Positions 17,021 through 24,252 of a DNA stretch of 32,000 nucleotides are shown piece after piece (the stretch's first letter is position 1; the number at the start of each line of letters is the position of its first letter). Below the pieces are notes generated by a model. It was not told the DNA's origin and made no database searches. It saw only the letters and a program-made list of their open reading frames with translations. Position numbers and translations under genes: made by a program. The DNA is from Acaryochloris thomasi RCC1774 (lineage in GTDB: Bacteria > Cyanobacteriota > Cyanobacteriia > Thermosynechococcales > Thermosynechococcaceae): NCBI RefSeq assembly GCF_003231495.1, contig NZ_PQWO01000015.1, positions 90,001 to 122,000 of the forward strand. Direction: 5' to 3'.

Positions 17021-18199
17021 CTAATTCCATGCCTGACCCACATTCGAAATCGACTCTAATGGATGAAAAGAAGGCGGCAAAGTGGATTCCTGGAGCTGAG
17101 TCCCCATCAGACGCTGCTTTAAAGTTGTGCGTAGCTGATCTTGTTGAGTATGGGAGCCTGCAAGGAGACAGACGACTTTACCCATATGGACGTTGCCCCA
17201 GTTGACGATGATGACTCCAACGCCGGTTTGGGCATCAAACTCAATCCCGCTCAGGTCAATATCGTTGAGCGCACGAAGGGGTGTCGTAAATGTCTCACAG
17301 ATCCAGCTTTGGATATCGAGCTTCTGGGCGACACCCGTGGGGTAGGAAGCTCCGTTGTAGCGAGGGTTGCATTCAATCGCATAGTAGCGAGGACCGCGGG
17401 AGCTAAAGACCACAGCGACATCAAAAGCAAAGATCTCCTGCATCCCCTGATCAACCATCCACTGAGCCATTGGCTCGACTAAATCCCACGGCTGGTATTC
17501 GGTGGGGTAGCGATTGCCGCTGTGGGAGCAGCCGTCTAAAATCTGTTCGGTGGCGGCGTGTCTCTCCAAGCCATCTTCAGTGACTCGATACTGAAGATTA
17601 AGAAAGGAAGCCGCTAAAACTTCTTCTTGAATTTGAAAGGAAACATTATCTGGCATATCGTATAGCGCCAGAGAAAGCTGCTGCCGGTCTGCACAACGAA
17701 CAATTCCCATCCCATCAACGGATACAGATGGCTTAACGTAGCAGGGATAAGGGATCTCAGAGTTCAATCTCAGCTCTGACTTCTGAGCAAAGCACAAGGT
17801 CTTAGGCACCGTCACCTGGAGCTGATGTGCCAGCTCCATGAAGTTATTTTTGTTGTTCATGCACTGAACAACATCATGCCAGCGCTGGTTCTCTTGGCGA
17901 AACTGCTGGCTCCGGTAGCTCTCTTGATTCTCTGCATCTCCGAAGTAAAAAACAGAAGTCTCTAGCTGAGGATGGGCCAGTCGGACTGCTGAAGATACAT
18001 CCCAAATCACGTTCTGACTATGGCGTAGACCAATGCGTTCGTAGTGCCCAACAATAGCCTGCCACTCTCCCCTCAGCGCTGGATGTAGCTGCACAATATC
18101 ATTCTGATCGGTCAAGCCTAGAACGCGCCCCGAATACAAGTAATTGCCAGTCACCTGCTGGTGCGTGCAGTTCATGATGTCGTGGTTAAAAATTTTCAT
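17021..18199 (-). CDS. ATP-grasp-fold ligase of unknown specificity
   Basis: ATP-grasp signatures: Lys strand plus flexible loop YVKPSVSVDGMGIV, hinge FQIQEEV, and Mg/ATP site FAFDVAV...YAIECNPRYNGASYP (the E-x-N motif). The roughly 120-aa N-terminal region matches no family I recognise. Confidence 0.75.
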   Translation of the reverse strand: MKIFNHDIMNCTHQQVTGNYLYSGRVLGLTDQNDIVQLHPALRGEWQAIVGHYERIGLRHSQNVIWDVSSAVRLAHPQLETSVFYFGDAENQESYRSQQFRQENQRWHDVVQCMNNKNNFMELAHQLQVTVPKTLCFAQKSELRLNSEIPYPCYVKPSVSVDGMGIVRCADRQQLSLALYDMPDNVSFQIQEEVLAASFLNLQYRVTEDGLERHAATEQILDGCSHSGNRYPTEYQPWDLVEPMAQWMVDQGMQEIFAFDVAVVFSSRGPRYYAIECNPRYNGASYPTGVAQKLDIQSWICETFTTPLRALNDIDLSGIEFDAQTGVGVIIVNWGNVHMGKVVCLLAGSHTQQDQLRTTLKQRLMGTQLQESTLPPSFHPLESISNVGQAWN

Positions 18200-18596
18200 A
18201 GCAATTAGCGACTAATCCACTTACAAAGGTCGTGACACTATCGATGCAGAGCTTGAAACTTGGGAAAAGCTGACTCACGTAGAGATCAGGGTTTGCTCCG
18301 TCCGACGAAACATCTGTTGATCTAACAACTGTTCAGCTAGAAATAGGAATGGGCTGCCAATGAATATGGCTATCAATCAAAAACGGCCTTGAGACATGCG
18401 ATACATAAAGGTTATTCATGCAACACGCCTAATGCCTTTAGTCTCTAGACGGGATACTCCGCAATTTTGTAGAGAGCTATTCAATAAAACCCGAAATGGT
18501 ATCGGATTTTACTGTTCTAGATATAACACAGATATTTGAGTCACAGCAGCAACTTAAAATTGATCCTTAGGGGGCATGTCATCAATGTTTGACATA

Positions 18597-18622
18597 GGCT
18601 GTTTCTCTCAGGAGAAACAGCC
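18597..18622. other. perfect 11-bp stem / 4-nt loop hairpin in AT-rich spacer
   Basis: GGCTGTTTCTC-TCAG-GAGAAACAGCC read directly from the sequence. It is immediately preceded (18577-18596) by a second inverted repeat, ATGTCA-N8-TGACAT. No U-tract follows on either strand, so it is not a canonical intrinsic terminator. Confidence 0.6.
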
Positions 18623-18778
18623 TTGAGGTACAACCGTCTGAGAGTTTTAGAGAGCAAGGGTATCCTAGACAAATTGCAATGCATCACACCAATATTTTCT
18701 GCCCAAAGAATATATTGTCTTAATATTTCAAGTTTTCTAAACTTTCGAGATCTGGAAGCTGGACAGTTCGGAAGGCAT

Positions 18779-20257
18779 TCACGAGTTGGACAACACCCAG
18801 GTATCTTTGCTGCCGCCACCTTGGGTTGAGTTAACAACAAGGGAGCCTTTTTTAAGGGCAACGCGCGTCAATCCACCCGGATGCACATAGATGTCTTCGC
18901 CACGATGAAGAACATAGGGCCGCAGGTCAACGTGTCGTCCTTCTAGGGTTCGATTCACAGCGGTCGGAATCCGAGATAGATAGATAGTGGGTTGGGCAAT
19001 ATAGGCTCTCGGTTGAGCTTTGATAAGCTGCGCAAATTCTTCCCGCCCTGCTGAGCTAGCGTGGGGACCAATCAGCAATCCTTTGCCTCCTTCACCACCG
19101 GCAGGTTTGATCACTAACTGATCGAGATGTTCTAAAACATACTGACGATCCTGTTCTCGCCAGCACAGATAGGTGGGCACGTTGGGCAGCAGAGGGTCTT
19201 CGCCCAGATAGTAGCGAATCATCTCAGGGACGTAGGCATAGATCACTTTATCGTCAGCAACGCCGGTTCCAAAGGCGTTGGCAACGATTAATCGTCCTTG
19301 CTGGCACAGCTCGATGATGGCTGCGAGTCCAGAGGCGTGACGGGTGCCGAAATCGAGTGGTTCAAAGAAGTCGGCGTTACGCCGTCGATAGAGAATCTCA
19401 ATTCGCTGCAGTCCTGTGGGGGTTCTGCGATGGAGGGAGTCATCTGCAATGACGAGGTCTTGCGGTTCAACGAGGGCCACTCCCATCTGCTCTGCTAAAA
19501 AGGCATGTTCAAAATATGCGGACTCAATGGGGCCGGGGGTGAGCACCGCAATGTTGGGTGCGGTACTGCTGTCTGAGGCGAGATTGAGGAGCGTTGAGCG
19601 TAGCTGTTGAGGATAGTGGGCAATGGGTTCGATGCCAATAGACTGGGGTGGCGGCAGGACTCGGGTCAAGGCTTCTCGGTTTTTGATCACGTAGGCGATT
19701 CCTGAGGGGACGCGCAGGTTGTCTTCTAAAACGTGCCAGGTGCCGTTGCGATCGCAAATCAGATCAATCCCGCTCACGTGGCACCAGACCCCATTTCGAG
19801 GCTGCATTCCTATACAGTCCGGCAAAAACCGTTCTGCCGACTCCACAACCGCTCTCGGAATTTTGCCGTCATTAATGATCTGCTGTTTGCCGTAGACATC
19901 GGCACAAAACAGATTGAGGGCCGCCACTCGCTGCTTGAGACCGGCCGACAGCCGCTGCCACTCCGTTGCTGAGATCACGCGGGGAATCACATCAAAGGGC
20001 AAAACACGCGGTTCGCCATCAAAGGTAAAGGTTGCACCTAATTGGGCGAGAACCTCTTCAGCCCTGGCATTGGCCTGCACCAGATCGCCTGCCGATAGCT
20101 GCTGTAGCCACTGCACAATCGATTCCATATCAGGGCGAGGACGCCCTGGAGCAGAGAAGTATTCGTCATAAAACTGCTCGGGATCGTAGGTATCAAACAG
20201 CACGGCTTTTAGAAGTACAGACTGCTGAAGATTGTGACACAGCCTTTGACATCTCAC
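18779..20257 (-). CDS. circularly permuted type-2 ATP-grasp protein (DUF404/DUF407 family)
   Basis: The N-terminal FYDEYF...GRPRP segment, overall length and the C-terminal GGLTRVALKKGSLVVNSTQGGGSKDTWVL signature match this family. The start may be GTG at 20203 (VLFDTYDPEQFYDEYF). Confidence 0.8.
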   Translation of the reverse strand: MRCQRLCHNLQQSVLLKAVLFDTYDPEQFYDEYFSAPGRPRPDMESIVQWLQQLSAGDLVQANARAEEVLAQLGATFTFDGEPRVLPFDVIPRVISATEWQRLSAGLKQRVAALNLFCADVYGKQQIINDGKIPRAVVESAERFLPDCIGMQPRNGVWCHVSGIDLICDRNGTWHVLEDNLRVPSGIAYVIKNREALTRVLPPPQSIGIEPIAHYPQQLRSTLLNLASDSSTAPNIAVLTPGPIESAYFEHAFLAEQMGVALVEPQDLVIADDSLHRRTPTGLQRIEILYRRRNADFFEPLDFGTRHASGLAAIIELCQQGRLIVANAFGTGVADDKVIYAYVPEMIRYYLGEDPLLPNVPTYLCWREQDRQYVLEHLDQLVIKPAGGEGGKGLLIGPHASSAGREEFAQLIKAQPRAYIAQPTIYLSRIPTAVNRTLEGRHVDLRPYVLHRGEDIYVHPGGLTRVALKKGSLVVNSTQGGGSKDTWVLSNS

Positions 20258-20267
20258 TGTATTCAGC

Positions 20268-21779
20268 TCACTTCATGTCGTAGCCAAACAAGTTAGGGTC
20301 CACATCAGTCAGCTGCAAATCGGCCAGACCATATTCAGCCCAGCGTCGATCAACAATCGCAGCCGTCTCAGGATCTGGAGTCAGGGGTTCGCTCCATTCA
20401 CGGTCGGTCTCAGGATAGATCTTGGTGGTGGCATCAATCCCCATCTTGCCACCCAAACCAGGCTGAGCCGTGGCAAAGTCAAGGCTATCAAAGGGATTGT
20501 CCGGCAAAATAAAGACGTCGCGCGCCGGATCAACCTGAGAACTGATCGCCCACACCACCGCGCGCGGATCGCGGATATTAATGGTCTCATCCACGACAAT
20601 CACAAACTTGGTGTAGGAAAACTGGGGGAGGGCGCTCCAGAAGGCTAATGCCGCTCGACGCGCCTGCCCTGGATAGGATTTCTTGATGGAAATAATGGCA
20701 GCTTTATAGCTGAGCGCTTCCATCGGTAGAAAGAAATCAACAATCTCAGTGACCTGCTGCCGCAGGATTGGCGTATAAATTCGATTGAGGGCGATGGCCA
20801 TCATGGCATCTTCCTTGGGTGGGCGTCCGCTGAAAGCCGTTAAGTAGATCGGATTCTTGCGATGGGTAACGCAGTTGAAGCGAATCAGCGGGGCCTTCTC
20901 ATTGACGGGGCCGTAGAAACCGATGTGATCTCCTGCGGGGCCATCCACCGCCACGTCACCAGGGGTAATCGTTCCTTCAAGAATCATTTCGGCATCAGCA
21001 GGAACTTCTAAATCCACCGTTTTACACTTGGAGAGGTTAATGCCTTTACCGCCGTAGAGTCCGGCAAATAGCCATTCTGATAAATCGATGGGTAGAGGAG
21101 TGGCTGCCGCCATGATCACGAGGGGATCTACGCCGAGTGAGATCGCAACCTCTAGCTTCTCCCCCCGCTCCGCAGCTTTCCGCAGATGTCGCGTGGCTCC
21201 CCGCACCGACAGCCACTGCACCGTCATCGTATTTTTAGACTGAATCTGCAGCCGATAGACACCCACATTAGGAATCTTGCTCTCTGGATCGCGGGTAATC
21301 ATCAGACCCAGCGTGATCACTTTGTCCGCATCACCTGAATAAACGCGCAGCATTGGAACTTGGGTCAAATCAACCTGCTCATCCTTGAGCACCACCTGAT
21401 GACAGGGCGGGAACAAGTCACGATCGGGCTTGGCGCGCACCACATCAAAAAGCACCTTACCAAAGTTCACCGTCTGCGCCAGCGTCTTTGGCGGCTTCGG
21501 TTGATAGAGTAGCGCTAGCTTTTGCCCTAGTGCCTCAAGCTCTTCCGGCTGCTCCACATTCATCGCCCAGCAAACCCGCTCCACCGTGCCCATCAGATTG
21601 ACGGCGACAGACTGATCAGTTCCCTTTACATTCTCAAATAGAAGAGCCGGACCACCCTGCTGCAGCATGCGATTGGCAATTTCAGAAATTTCTAAATCAG
21701 GGTCTACCAGCGCCGTAATCCGCCGCAATTGTCCTCGCTGCTCTAGAAGCTTGATAAATCCCCGTAGGTCTCTAGCCAT
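20268..21779 (-). CDS. ubiD: UbiD-family (prenylated-FMN dependent) decarboxylase, probable 4-hydroxy-3-polyprenylbenzoate decarboxylase
   Basis: 503 aa starting MARDLRGFIKLLEQRGQLRRI. LLFENVKG, NVGVYR and the rest are collinear with UbiD family proteins. Confidence 0.9.
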   Translation of the reverse strand: MARDLRGFIKLLEQRGQLRRITALVDPDLEISEIANRMLQQGGPALLFENVKGTDQSVAVNLMGTVERVCWAMNVEQPEELEALGQKLALLYQPKPPKTLAQTVNFGKVLFDVVRAKPDRDLFPPCHQVVLKDEQVDLTQVPMLRVYSGDADKVITLGLMITRDPESKIPNVGVYRLQIQSKNTMTVQWLSVRGATRHLRKAAERGEKLEVAISLGVDPLVIMAAATPLPIDLSEWLFAGLYGGKGINLSKCKTVDLEVPADAEMILEGTITPGDVAVDGPAGDHIGFYGPVNEKAPLIRFNCVTHRKNPIYLTAFSGRPPKEDAMMAIALNRIYTPILRQQVTEIVDFFLPMEALSYKAAIISIKKSYPGQARRAALAFWSALPQFSYTKFVIVVDETINIRDPRAVVWAISSQVDPARDVFILPDNPFDSLDFATAQPGLGGKMGIDATTKIYPETDREWSEPLTPDPETAAIVDRRWAEYGLADLQLTDVDPNLFGYDMK

Positions 21780-22154
21780 GACTCTCTCATTGTGGATACA
21801 TCCTTCATTATTGCGAGAAGTGAAGTTATACGGGGATTTTATTGACTCCTATTTGTGACTTATCGGGGGTGGGAAGGTCTCACTGAAGAGTAATAGCCCC
21901 ATTCCAGAAAGGCTAGCTCGGTTAAATTTTTTATACAGACTGCGGGGAAATGCCTCATTAACTGCAAAACTCAGTTGTCAGGTTTTATTCCACTATTTTC
22001 ACAATAAACATGACCTTAAAAAACCTTGCCCACCCCCTTCGCATCTGAGTCCATCCATCTTGCCTTCATGGGCAGGGGACTTTATCTTAATGGAGGCCGT
22101 GCAATCGCCTTAGGATAAAAGTGTTCTGAGCGTTTTGTTCTCTGCTGACAGCTT

Positions 22155-23237
22155 GTGAGCAACTCTCGAAATTTGAACGTGTCAGGAAATCGCAGGTACT
22201 ATAGCAAGGCCATCACCTTAATGGAACAGGTTGTTGACAGAGAGAAGAAAACGCGTCAGACAACCCTGACAGCGCCAACGACAGGTCTCCTGGCTAGCGG
22301 TTTGAAAGACTATTGGTACGCTGTTGAATTTTCTTCTAAGCTTCAGGACGCAACCCTCATCTCCTTTGAACTTTTTGATCAGCCCTGGGTTCTTTTTCGA
22401 GATCGCCAGGGGCAAGTTGGCTGTATCCAAGACGAATGCGCTCACCGTGCCTGCCCGCTATCTCTAGGGCAAGTGGTAGACGGAACCGTGCAGTGTGGCT
22501 ACCACGGTTGGCAGTACGATGCCAGCGGTAGCTGTACCCACATGCCATCTTGTCAGCACATTCAGGTGCAGATCAAAAGCCTACCCTGCCAAGAACAAAA
22601 TGGGATGATTTGGGTCTGGCCAGGTTCAGCACAGCCAACGGAACTGTCTGAACACATTTATCAGCTTCCAGAGGGGTTTCAGCTCCATGCTGAAGTCGCG
22701 ATGGAGCTACCCGTTGAGCATGGCTTACTGCTGGAAAATCTCCTGGACCTTGCCCATGCACCTTTCACTCACACCGGTACGTTTGCTAGGGGCTGGTCTG
22801 TACCTGACTTAGTAAGGTTTATGACCCCCCAGACTCCCCTGACGGGACATTGGGATCCTTACCCCATTGAAATGTCCTTTGAGCCACCTTGCTACGTGAT
22901 CAGTACCATTGGTCTACGCGGCAAAACCTGCGGTCGCCATCTGCATCAGCTACACTGCTGCCTACCCGCAGGTCAGGGTAAAACCCGACTGCTCTATCAA
23001 CTTTCGCTGGATTTTTATGGCTGGGCCAGATTTCTGCCTGGTAAAGATCGGTTCTGGCGCTCGATGGCCCAGCGCGTGATTGACGAAGACCTGCGGTTGG
23101 TCGTAGGTCAGCAAGATCGACTTGCTGCAGGCGCGGACATTTGGCGAACACCTGTGGGATATGACAAGTTAGGGATTAGCTATCGTCGCTGGCGCAATCA
23201 GATTGAGCAAAGCAGCCCTGATTGGCAGGAACGGTAG
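22155..23237 (+). CDS. cao: chlorophyllide a oxygenase (chlorophyll b synthase), Rieske non-heme iron oxygenase
   Basis: Rieske motif C95-x-H97...C114-x2-H117 (nt 22437-22505). Mononuclear iron motif E-x3-D-x2-H-x4-H in ENLLDLAHAPFTH. Long blocks match the plant/algal CAO catalytic domain as I remember it (LLDLAHAPFTHT-TFA-GWSVP, WDPYPI-M-F-PPC, HLHQLH-CLP, KTRLLY--SLDF, EDLRLV-GQQ, YDKLG--YR-WRN). The ORF opens with GTG 22155; ATG 22221 (MEQVVD) is an alternative start. Confidence 0.8.
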   Translation: MSNSRNLNVSGNRRYYSKAITLMEQVVDREKKTRQTTLTAPTTGLLASGLKDYWYAVEFSSKLQDATLISFELFDQPWVLFRDRQGQVGCIQDECAHRACPLSLGQVVDGTVQCGYHGWQYDASGSCTHMPSCQHIQVQIKSLPCQEQNGMIWVWPGSAQPTELSEHIYQLPEGFQLHAEVAMELPVEHGLLLENLLDLAHAPFTHTGTFARGWSVPDLVRFMTPQTPLTGHWDPYPIEMSFEPPCYVISTIGLRGKTCGRHLHQLHCCLPAGQGKTRLLYQLSLDFYGWARFLPGKDRFWRSMAQRVIDEDLRLVVGQQDRLAAGADIWRTPVGYDKLGISYRRWRNQIEQSSPDWQER

Positions 23238-23377
23238 CCATCAGCGGCTTTCTAACATGGGCATATTGGCACTCGACGGCTGCGAGTGCTTAAAGAATTC
23301 GCAATATACTGCAGTCTCAAGTTTGGCTGCGGGCATAATAAGTCAAACTTAAGCAAAACTTAATCAGGGGTACCGTT

Positions 23378-23680
23378 ATGGTCTTGCATCCTGAGTTTAA
23401 GCGGAGTACGCTTCAGTTCTGGCGGCAGATGGAAATGTTCCATGTGTTTATCGGCCATCCTGAACTGGAGGTAGAAGTCTCCTACGACCTAAAGCCGATT
23501 CAACGCATCTTTATTCATTCTGACCACTGTGCTTTAGAGGTACCTGAGGTTCCGGCCATTACGTTTCGGGCAACGGTGATTGATACGCTGCCCATCGAAT
23601 CAGTGGAAACCATCATCCGCCGGTTTAGTTTTAATGCTGCAGACCAATCGTATATCGCCACCCTCGGCATGATTGGCTAG
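23378..23680 (+). CDS. hypothetical protein (100 aa)
   Basis: Clean ORF 140 nt downstream of cao on the same strand, with a purine-rich AGGGG 7 nt before the ATG. I recognise no motif. Confidence 0.5.
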   Translation: MVLHPEFKRSTLQFWRQMEMFHVFIGHPELEVEVSYDLKPIQRIFIHSDHCALEVPEVPAITFRATVIDTLPIESVETIIRRFSFNAADQSYIATLGMIG

Positions 23681-23690
23681 CGCGGTTTTC

Positions 23691-24252
23691 CTATTCTTTC
23701 AGCCAAGCAAACAGTTCTTTGACCGTTAAGTCAAAGGCTTCAGCAAAATCAGGCACGGGTAACTTCGCCTCCATTTCTTCGTAGAAGGCGGTCGACTGAT
23801 TAGGGCAGTAAACAAAAACCAACTGTTCTGCGGGGTCGATGAGCCACCCCATTTGAGTGCCATGACTGAGACAGTGCAAAATATTTTTCACAACTTCTGT
23901 ATAACTTTGTCCCGGCGACAAAATCTCGATTGTCCAGTCAGGCACAAGAGAAAATATATTTGTAACTTCTCCCTTTTGATCACGGGGAATACGGTCCTAA
24001 AGGAGAACGGCAATATCAGGAACAGTAGAGCGATCTCCAAAGGTACAGCGCAGTTCAGGGAATGTCCGAGCTATTCGCTGCGCTTTGACGACAGAGTTGA
24101 GGGCCGATACTAACTCCTTGAATGACGCTATGTTTTCCTTGCGACATCGGCTTTTGAATAATATTTCCATCAATGTACTCACCGGCAGGTTCTGTTTCTG
24201 GTAGGTCCAGAAAAGCTTCCAGCGTGAGTACTTTTTGAGGTACTTGAAGCAT
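23691..24252 (-). pseudogene. Uma2-family (DUF820) endonuclease, disrupted by one frameshift and one nonsense codon
   Basis: Three ORF fragments are collinear with Uma2 proteins: MLQVPQKVLTLEAFLDLPETEPAGEYIDGNIIQKPMSQGKHSVIQ (frame A), ELVSALNSVVKAQRIARTFPELRCTFGDRSTVPDIAVLL (frame B) and DRIPRDQKGEVTNIFSLVPDWTIEILSPGQS... (frame B). The frame shifts near 24115-24122. The in-frame TAG at 23997-23999 sits where family members have Trp (TGG) in the W-(D/E)-R-I-P segment. Confidence 0.8.

What the first reader, a model, noticed from the sequence alone, without database searches (positions are those of the whole stretch)
22155..23237. Chlorophyll b synthase (CAO) gene in a cyanobacterial context
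The ORF has an intact Rieske centre (CAHRAC...CGYHGW, nt 22437-22505) and an intact mononuclear-iron site (ENLLDLAHAPFTH). Across the catalytic domain it matches block after block of the plant/green-algal chlorophyllide a oxygenase sequence as I remember it, rather than the PAO/Tic55 branch. CAO is known from only a handful of cyanobacteria (prochlorophytes such as Prochlorothrix and Prochloron, and a few recently found strains). The flanking genes and HIP1 density show this is native cyanobacterial DNA. The organism is therefore predicted to make Chl b. If it is not a known prochlorophyte, that would be a new Chl b lineage.
Basis: partly seen in the sequence, partly recalled or inferred. Interest (0 to 1): 0.7.

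Follow-up and report, generated by a model that had tools for sequence, protein, structure and literature searches.

The report
Known chlorophyll b synthase, Acaryochloris thomasi
The gene is a real, intact chlorophyll b synthase (chlorophyllide a oxygenase), but it is the already published cao gene of the cyanobacterium Acaryochloris thomasi RCC1774, a strain shown in 2018 to contain chlorophyll b, so the finding is correct and not new.

Summary
The ORF is real and intact. It has a Rieske [2Fe-2S] motif, a mononuclear-iron motif and Pfam Rieske + PaO + VanA_C domains. All of the best 120 database hits carry this same Pfam domain set, and every function-specific source name among them is chlorophyllide a oxygenase (CAO). 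Identity is 63% to the in-vitro-characterised Prochlorothrix hollandica CAO and 55-58% to plant CAO catalytic domains. In a neighbour-joining tree it falls in a cyanobacterial CAO clade (bootstrap 96).

The novelty condition fails. The 338-aa product read from ATG 22221 is 100% identical over its full length to PZD71631.1/WP_110987895.1, "chlorophyllide a oxygenase [Acaryochloris thomasi RCC1774]". Three other window proteins are 100% identical to proteins recorded for that genome, each listed with the same 133,860-bp longest contig. Partensky et al. 2018 (Sci Rep 8:9142) list this gene as cao, C1752_05092. [quoted passage not shown]

Corrections: the start is most likely ATG 22221, not GTG 22155.

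Additions:
- The gene's composition matches its flanks.
- It is under strong purifying selection (dN/dS about 0.05).
- It is syntenic in two uncultured relatives.
- It is absent from the plasmid and phage collections.

Verdict: already known, low interest.

The parts
22221..23237 (+). cao coding sequence (338 aa plus stop): chlorophyllide a oxygenase with the catalytic domain only. Published as C1752_05092 / PZD71631.1 / WP_110987895.1 of Acaryochloris thomasi RCC1774.
   Evidence: 100% identity over 338/338 aa to P0123; Pfam Rieske+PaO+VanA_C; locus tag from Table S2 of PMC6002478.
22155..22220 (+). Probably 5' leader or promoter DNA rather than coding sequence.
   Evidence: Annotated homologues start at the ATG. 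L001 has an in-frame stop 10 codons upstream of the ATG. The 30 nt before the ATG are nearly identical at the DNA level in the window, L028 and L001.
22437..22505 (+). Rieske [2Fe-2S] ligand motif C73-x-H75 ... C92-x-x-H95 (338-aa numbering).
   Evidence: Motif search and alignment with Prochlorothrix, Prochloron, Marchantia and Canna CAOs; all four ligands are conserved.
22734..22772 (+). Mononuclear non-haem iron motif E172-x3-D176-x2-H179-x4-H184 (ENLLDLAHAPFTH).
   Evidence: NLLDLAHAPFTH is identical in all five aligned CAOs; the first residue of the motif is E in four and D in Canna.
22878..23135 (+). PaO (PF08417) C-terminal domain region of the catalytic domain.
   Evidence: Pfam PaO hit at residues 242-327 of the 360-aa ORF, E 1.4e-15.
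21780..22220 (.). Intergenic region of 441 bp between the divergently transcribed UbiD-family decarboxylase gene (20268..21779, -) and cao. It contains blocks conserved in related loci and presumably holds both promoters.
   Evidence: Three-way alignment with L028 and L001, mean column identity 80% with long invariant blocks. The sigma-70 consensus scan found nothing.

Best explanation
This is the native, functional cao gene of Acaryochloris thomasi RCC1774. It encodes a prokaryote-type chlorophyllide a oxygenase that has the catalytic (C) domain only. By analogy with characterised CAOs, the enzyme is a trimeric Rieske non-haem-iron oxygenase. The [2Fe-2S] cluster (C73, H75, C92, H95) accepts electrons from a still unidentified reductase or ferredoxin and passes them to the mononuclear iron (motif E172/D176/H179/H184). 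There O2 is activated for two successive monooxygenations of the C7 methyl group of chlorophyllide a: methyl to hydroxymethyl, then to a gem-diol that loses water to give the formyl group, i.e. chlorophyllide b. Esterification by chlorophyll synthase then yields Chl b, which is bound by the Pcb-type antenna proteins encoded elsewhere in the genome. What is shown: sequence identity, motifs, clade membership, organism identity, purifying selection, and (from the literature) Chl b in the strain. What is inferred by homology: trimer formation, the two-step mechanism and the substrate for this particular protein.
For: - Identity of the gene: 100% identity to the annotated A. thomasi RCC1774 CAO.
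- Identity of the window: three further window proteins are 100% identical to RCC1774 proteins, each recorded with the same 133,860-bp longest contig, and their WP accession numbers rise in window order.
- Domains and motifs: Pfam Rieske+PaO+VanA_C; metal-ligand motifs intact and conserved in the alignment.
- Similarity: all of the best 120 homologues carry the same Pfam domain set, and every function-specific source name among them is CAO. Identity is 63% to Prochlorothrix hollandica, about 65% to the sequences I take to be Prochloron, and 55-58% to plants.
- Tree: bootstrap 96% for the cyanobacterial CAO clade and 99% for the CAO-like group against all other Rieske representatives.
- Selection: dN/dS 0.047 against the L028 orthologue.
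- Literature: RCC1774 has Chl b (b/a about 0.16), no Chl d, one cao gene (66% and 63% identity to Prochloron and Prochlorothrix) and seven Chl a/b antenna genes (PMC6002478). P. hollandica CAO and three eukaryotic CAOs convert Chlide a to Chlide b in vitro through the 7-hydroxymethyl intermediate, and PhCAO is trimeric with three Fe per monomer (PMC9615114).
Against: - No enzymology or knockout exists for this particular protein; its activity is inferred from homology plus the strain's pigment content.
- Named PAO, Tic55 and PTC52 sequences were not in my tree. The outgroups were unnamed or generically named Rieske representatives.
- The second Rieske box reads CGYH, where most CAOs have CPYH. 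This is a minor difference and Prochloron has CAYH.
- The physiological electron donor is unknown for any CAO.
Confidence: 0.96

Rival explanations
1. The protein belongs to the PAO/Tic55/PTC52 branch, or is another Rieske oxygenase (for example a pheophorbide a oxygenase involved in chlorophyll breakdown), and is not the Chl b synthase.
For: It carries the Pfam 'PaO' domain, which is shared by the whole CAO/PAO/Tic55 superfamily. NCBIfam has no CAO model, and its best hit is a sub-threshold sterol monooxygenase. No named PAO sequences were in my tree.
Against: Identity is 55-65% across the full catalytic domain to CAOs, including the biochemically validated P. hollandica enzyme. Identity to every full-length representative outside the CAO-like group is 36% or lower. 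Tree support is 96% and 99%. The 2018 paper reports separate Pao genes in the same genome, and says that cao has no orthologue in the Chl d-containing Acaryochloris strains that lack Chl b.
Confidence: 0.02
2. The gene is a functional CAO but a recent horizontal acquisition carried on a mobile element, not long-resident DNA of this lineage.
For: CAO is patchily distributed among cyanobacteria. Its genomic context differs completely in P. hollandica (L030/L031) and in a 72%-identical metagenomic homologue (L029, next to psaA/psaB). A. marina lacks it. A degraded Uma2-family gene lies 450 bp downstream.
Against: GC (0.531) and GC3 (0.525) match the flanking housekeeping genes. No transposase, integrase or tRNA lies nearby. 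The UbiD-cao arrangement and eight or more flanking genes are collinear in two diverged relatives, L028 (89% CAO identity, both flanks) and L001 (83%, upstream flank). CAO divergence there is typical of its neighbours, which range from 58% to 96%. No CAO-like gene above 31% identity was found in 72,556 plasmids or 50,697 phage records. An ancient acquisition, or an ancestral presence with loss in A. marina, remains open, as the 2018 paper itself says.
Confidence: 0.08
3. The gene is an inactive relic, and Chl b in the strain comes from another enzyme.
For: There is no direct genetics for this gene.
Against: The ORF is intact, all metal ligands are present and dN/dS is about 0.05. The paper found only one cao homologue in the genome.
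Confidence: 0.01

Closest known systems
Acaryochloris thomasi RCC1774 cao (C1752_05092; PZD71631.1 / WP_110987895.1), Partensky et al. 2018, Sci Rep 8:9142
   Same: It is the same gene: 338/338 aa identical. Neighbouring proteins are also identical to RCC1774 proteins.
   Different: Nothing at the protein level.
Prochlorothrix hollandica CAO (PhCAO, WP_017713323.1), characterised in vitro (Liu et al. 2022, ACS Cent Sci, PMC9615114)
   Same: Prokaryotic architecture with the catalytic domain only. Rieske and mononuclear-iron motifs are identical, with 63% identity over 326 aa. Same cyanobacterial CAO clade.
   Different: PhCAO has a C-terminal tail of about 40 aa that is absent here. It has CPYH where this protein has CGYH in the second Rieske box. 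The genomic context is unrelated.
Prochloron didemni CAO (Tomitani et al. 1999). Hits P0013/P0137-139 (AFSK01/AGGA01 assemblies) are assigned to Prochloron from my memory of those accession prefixes, not from a source name.
   Same: About 65% identity here (the paper gives 66%); same architecture and motifs.
   Different: Different host lineage. Prochloron lacks phycobiliproteins, whereas RCC1774 keeps phycocyanin.
Viridiplantae CAO (e.g. Arabidopsis AtCAO; Marchantia P0025)
   Same: The catalytic C domain is 55-58% identical with all motif blocks conserved. This is the same reaction as shown in vitro for the Arabidopsis, Chlamydomonas and Micromonas enzymes.
   Different: Plant enzymes have an N-terminal transit peptide plus regulatory A (degron) and B domains of about 200-290 aa. 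These are absent here: the alignment begins at Marchantia residue 288.
PAO / Tic55 / PTC52 Rieske oxygenases
   Same: Same superfamily: Rieske + PaO Pfam domains and the same metal-binding motifs.
   Different: Full-length representatives outside the CAO-like group are 36% identical or less. RCC1774 has separate Pao genes. They act on different substrates (pheophorbide a ring opening and others; from established knowledge).

Membership tests
Chlorophyllide a oxygenase (CAO, EC 1.14.13.122) | N-terminal Rieske [2Fe-2S] motif CxH-x16-17-CxxH | tested here: met
   C73-A-H75 ... C92-G-Y-H95, nt 22437-22505; Pfam Rieske E 6e-23.
Chlorophyllide a oxygenase (CAO, EC 1.14.13.122) | Mononuclear non-haem iron motif (E/N)x3Dx2Hx4H in the catalytic domain | tested here: met
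   ENLLDLAHAPFTH, residues 172-184. NLLDLAHAPFTH is identical in the Prochlorothrix, Prochloron, Marchantia and Canna CAOs; the first residue is D in Canna.
Chlorophyllide a oxygenase (CAO, EC 1.14.13.122) | PaO/VanA_C-type C-terminal catalytic domain | tested here: met
   PF08417 E 1.4e-15; PF19112 E 1.9e-13.
Chlorophyllide a oxygenase (CAO, EC 1.14.13.122) | Groups with experimentally validated CAOs in a phylogeny | tested here: met
   NJ tree of 102 sequences over 296 columns. The clade with P. hollandica CAO and the presumed Prochloron CAO has bootstrap 96/100. The CAO-like group against the remaining Rieske representatives has 99/100. Cyanobacterial plus eukaryotic CAO as one clade has 66/100.
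Chlorophyllide a oxygenase (CAO, EC 1.14.13.122) | Separation from curated, named PAO, Tic55 and PTC52 sequences in a maximum-likelihood tree | not tested
   No named PAO/Tic55/PTC52 sequences were retrieved and the outgroup names were uninformative. Indirect evidence: identity to anything outside the CAO-like group is 36% or lower, and the paper lists separate Pao genes.
Chlorophyllide a oxygenase (CAO, EC 1.14.13.122) | Converts chlorophyllide a to chlorophyllide b (C7 methyl to formyl) | not testable with these tools
   Organism-level support: HPLC shows Chl b at b/a about 0.16 in RCC1774, and there is only one cao homologue in its genome (PMC6002478). The activity has been shown in vitro for the 63%-identical PhCAO.
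Plant-type CAO architecture (A degron + B + C domains) | N-terminal regulatory A and B domains | tested here: not met
   The protein aligns only to the C domain (Marchantia residues 288-600). This is the known prokaryotic architecture, as in PhCAO.
Chl b-containing cyanobacteria ('green oxyphotobacteria') | CAO plus Pcb-type Chl a/b antenna genes plus Chl b in the cells | tested here: inconclusive
   CAO is present. No pcb gene lies in this 32-kb window. The paper lists seven antenna genes on other contigs and gives the HPLC evidence, so the feature is met according to the literature, not from the window alone.

The most novel reading that the evidence does not exclude
The gene itself is known. 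The most novel reading left open concerns its relatives. CAO orthologues at 72-97% identity occur in several uncultured MAGs and metagenomes assigned to Thermosynechococcaceae or to unclassified cyanobacteria. In two of them the UbiD-cao neighbourhood is collinear with RCC1774. This would mean that A. thomasi is the only cultured member of a broader, long-established clade of Chl b-producing cyanobacteria in which cao has been inherited vertically. That would favour the 'Chl b is old in this lineage' scenario that Partensky et al. left open.
Probability: 0.5. Interest if true: 0.35.

Novelty: already known. Interest (0 to 1): 0.1.

Why it matters
Chl b synthesis in cyanobacteria is rare and bears on the origin of the green-plastid antenna, so a new CAO-bearing lineage would have been notable. 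Here the gene, the organism and its pigment phenotype were all published in 2018. The value of this check is that it closes the lead. The small additions (native composition, strong purifying selection, conserved synteny in uncultured relatives, no plasmid or phage carriers) bear modestly on whether Chl b was gained recently or is old in the Acaryochloris/RCC1774 lineage.

Tried and rejected
- Exact-product look-ups. Looking up the contig for the window protein and for P0123 returned nothing. The GTDB genome scan did not return the source genome, only relatives at 83% identity or less. The origin was established from cluster membership instead.
- Naming outgroups. I looked up ten distant representatives to label PAO/Tic55 branches. 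The names were absent or generic, and one was an obviously loose 'chlorophyllide a oxygenase' label on a 36%-identical protein. The tree therefore has no named PAO outgroup. I ran no further search on this because 100% identity to a published gene already settles the case.
- The 100-aa ORF just downstream (23378..23680) as a possible CAO partner. This is rejected as a linked factor. It is a real gene (dN/dS 0.024) and restricted to this lineage (6 clusters among 5.8 billion proteins). However, in three of its homologues' contigs no CAO is nearby.
- Structured RNA or tRNA near the gene: none.
- Sigma-70 consensus promoters in 21700-23700: none.
- Mobile-element origin: no support.
- Similarity between the N-terminal extensions of some cyanobacterial CAOs and the plant A/B domains: none by BLAST.

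Full report
**Observation.** The + strand ORF at 22155..23237 exists (360 aa from a GTG). It contains the Rieske box CAHRACPLSLGQVVDGTVQCGYH at nt 22437-22505 and the mononuclear-iron motif ENLLDLAHAPFTH at nt 22734-22772. Pfam finds Rieske (E 6e-23), PaO (1.4e-15) and VanA_C (1.9e-13). NCBIfam has no model that reaches its cut-off. The closest solved structures are distant Rieske oxygenases such as dicamba demethylase DdmC (E 4e-23, N-terminal half only). HIP1 (GCGATCGC) occurs 13 times in the window against 0.4 expected. The flanking genes are ordinary cyanobacterial housekeeping genes:
- CcsA-type cytochrome c assembly protein, a tetrapyrrole methylase, CbiX, FtsH and MetRS;
- LptC, an ABC1 kinase, isoaspartyl peptidase and two ATP-grasp proteins;
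- a UbiD-family decarboxylase, an M20 amidohydrolase, an SDR, DUF4079, acylphosphatase, dienelactone hydrolase and RNase E/G.

**Start codon.** The annotated protein and the nearest homologues are 338 aa, which corresponds to ATG 22221. In related loci the ATG and the 30 nt before it are conserved. In L001 an in-frame stop lies 10 codons upstream of the ATG. The 22 codons from GTG 22155 are therefore most likely untranslated.

**What it is.** The large protein search returned 798 hits. All of the best 120 carry the Pfam Rieske + PaO set (VanA_C as well in all but one), and every function-specific source name among them is CAO. They comprise:
- cyanobacterial sequences at 56-97% identity;
- Prochlorothrix hollandica at 63%;
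- the sequences I take to be Prochloron at about 65% (assigned from the AFSK01/AGGA01 accession prefixes, from memory);
- plant and green-algal 'chlorophyllide a oxygenase' at 50-59% over the catalytic domain.

Alignment with Prochlorothrix, Prochloron, Marchantia and Canna CAOs shows conservation block after block. It also shows that this protein corresponds only to the plant C (catalytic) domain; the transit peptide and the A and B domains are absent, as in other prokaryotic CAOs.

**Tree.** An exhaustive HMMER scan of 1.84 billion cluster representatives supplied more distant relatives. I built a neighbour-joining tree of 102 full-length sequences over 296 columns. The window protein falls in a cyanobacterial CAO clade (bootstrap 96/100) next to the Viridiplantae CAOs. 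A CAO-like supergroup separates from all other Rieske representatives at 99/100. Full-length proteins outside that group are 36% identical or less. I could not obtain named PAO/Tic55/PTC52 outgroups, so that specific comparison remains untested.

**Whose gene it is.**
- Cluster look-up shows that the 338-aa product is 100% identical, end to end, to PZD71631.1/WP_110987895.1, 'chlorophyllide a oxygenase [Acaryochloris thomasi RCC1774]'.
- Three other window proteins (LptC-like, SDR, dienelactone hydrolase) are also 100% identical to RCC1774 proteins. Each is recorded with the same 133,860-bp longest contig, and their WP accession numbers rise in window order.
- The window is therefore A. thomasi RCC1774 DNA.
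- Partensky et al. 2018 (PMC6002478) described this strain as the 'fourth green oxyphotobacterium'. They reported monovinyl Chl a and b (b/a about 0.16 by HPLC), no Chl d, and phycocyanin.
- Their Table S2 lists it as cao, C1752_05092, contig 15, 'no ortholog in A. marina MBIC11017'.
- The sequence has since been used as a prokaryotic outgroup in a CAO phylogeny (bioRxiv 10.1101/2025.02.10.637544).

**Mechanism.** This is inferred by homology. Liu et al. 2022 (PMC9615114) showed that P. hollandica CAO is trimeric and contains three Fe per monomer. They showed that it and the Arabidopsis, Chlamydomonas and Micromonas CAOs, together with the non-native reductase VanB and NADPH, convert chlorophyllide a (not Chl a) to chlorophyllide b. 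The reaction proceeds by two monooxygenations through 7-hydroxymethyl-chlorophyllide a. The native reductase is unknown. All ligands for both metal centres are present here, and the gene is under strong purifying selection (dN/dS 0.047 against L028).

**Origin of the gene in this genome.**
- GC (0.531) and GC3 (0.525) are like those of the neighbours.
- No tRNA, Rfam element, integrase or transposase lies nearby.
- In a JGI metagenome contig (L028, CAO 89% identical) the neighbourhood is collinear on both sides over about 15 kb.
- In a Thermosynechococcaceae MAG (L001, CAO 83%) eight upstream genes are collinear. CAO divergence there is typical of its neighbours, which range from 58% to 96%.
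- By contrast, P. hollandica (L030/L031) and a 72%-identical metagenomic CAO (L029, immediately downstream of psaA/psaB) have unrelated contexts.
- No CAO-like gene above 31% identity occurs in the plasmid or phage collections.
- These results argue against recent mobile-element transfer into RCC1774. They do not decide between ancient gain and ancestral presence, which the 2018 paper also left open.

**Verdict.** Novelty: already known. Interest: low.

Noticed in passing
window 23378-23680 (+): A 100-aa ORF lies immediately downstream of cao with no Pfam or NCBIfam hit. It is a real gene: 94% aa identity against 83% nt identity with L028, dN/dS 0.024. It is extremely lineage-restricted, with only 6 homologue clusters among 5.8 billion proteins, all in Thermosynechococcaceae-like MAGs or metagenomes. 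No functional link to CAO is supported.
   Followed up: yes
window 23691-24252 (-): A degraded Uma2-family (PF05685, 'putative restriction endonuclease') gene is split into two or three ORF fragments. This roughly 585-bp segment is absent from the otherwise collinear locus L028, where the 100-aa ORF is followed directly by the M20 amidohydrolase gene. It is therefore an insertion or relic specific to RCC1774 or its close kin.
   Followed up: partly
proteins P0007-P0010 and P0019 (e.g. MAG 'Cyanothece sp. SIO1E1'); not in the window: A subgroup of cyanobacterial CAO homologues (66-68% identical; 436-478 aa) carries an N-terminal extension of about 100-150 aa. The extension has a conserved, coiled-coil-looking segment of about 45 aa. 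It has no Pfam domain and no BLAST similarity to the plant A/B regulatory domains. It may be an independent regulatory add-on in prokaryotic CAOs.
   Followed up: partly
L029 10001-11056 (ENA ERZ25070786, contig ctg149497l): A CAO homologue 72% identical to the window protein sits directly downstream of psaA and an apparently split psaB (443 + 293 aa) in an unidentified cyanobacterial contig. This context is different from both RCC1774 and Prochlorothrix.
   Followed up: no
database hits P0001-P0024: CAO-clade genes occur in many uncultured cyanobacterial MAGs and metagenomes (Thermosynechococcaceae, 'Cyanothece sp. SIO1E1', 'Xenococcus sp.', 'Prochlorothrix sp.' and unnamed ones). Potential Chl b producers therefore appear more widespread than the four cultured lineages. 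I found no paper on this, though I did not run a search aimed specifically at it.
   Followed up: partly
window 21780-22220 (intergenic UbiD/cao), especially 21919-21980 and 22190-22220: Long invariant DNA blocks are shared with L028 and L001, including TTTAAATTTTTTATACAG and the 30 nt before the cao ATG (CGCAGGTACTATAGCAAGGCCATCACCT, with a -10-like TACTAT). These are candidate promoter or leader elements. The consensus promoter scan found nothing.
   Followed up: partly
window 17021-20257 (-): Two adjacent ATP-grasp-type genes (a weak ATP-grasp_4 hit and a circularly permuted ATP-grasp type 2) and an isoaspartyl peptidase gene lie upstream of UbiD. They are conserved in order in L001 and L028. 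Their function was not examined.
   Followed up: no
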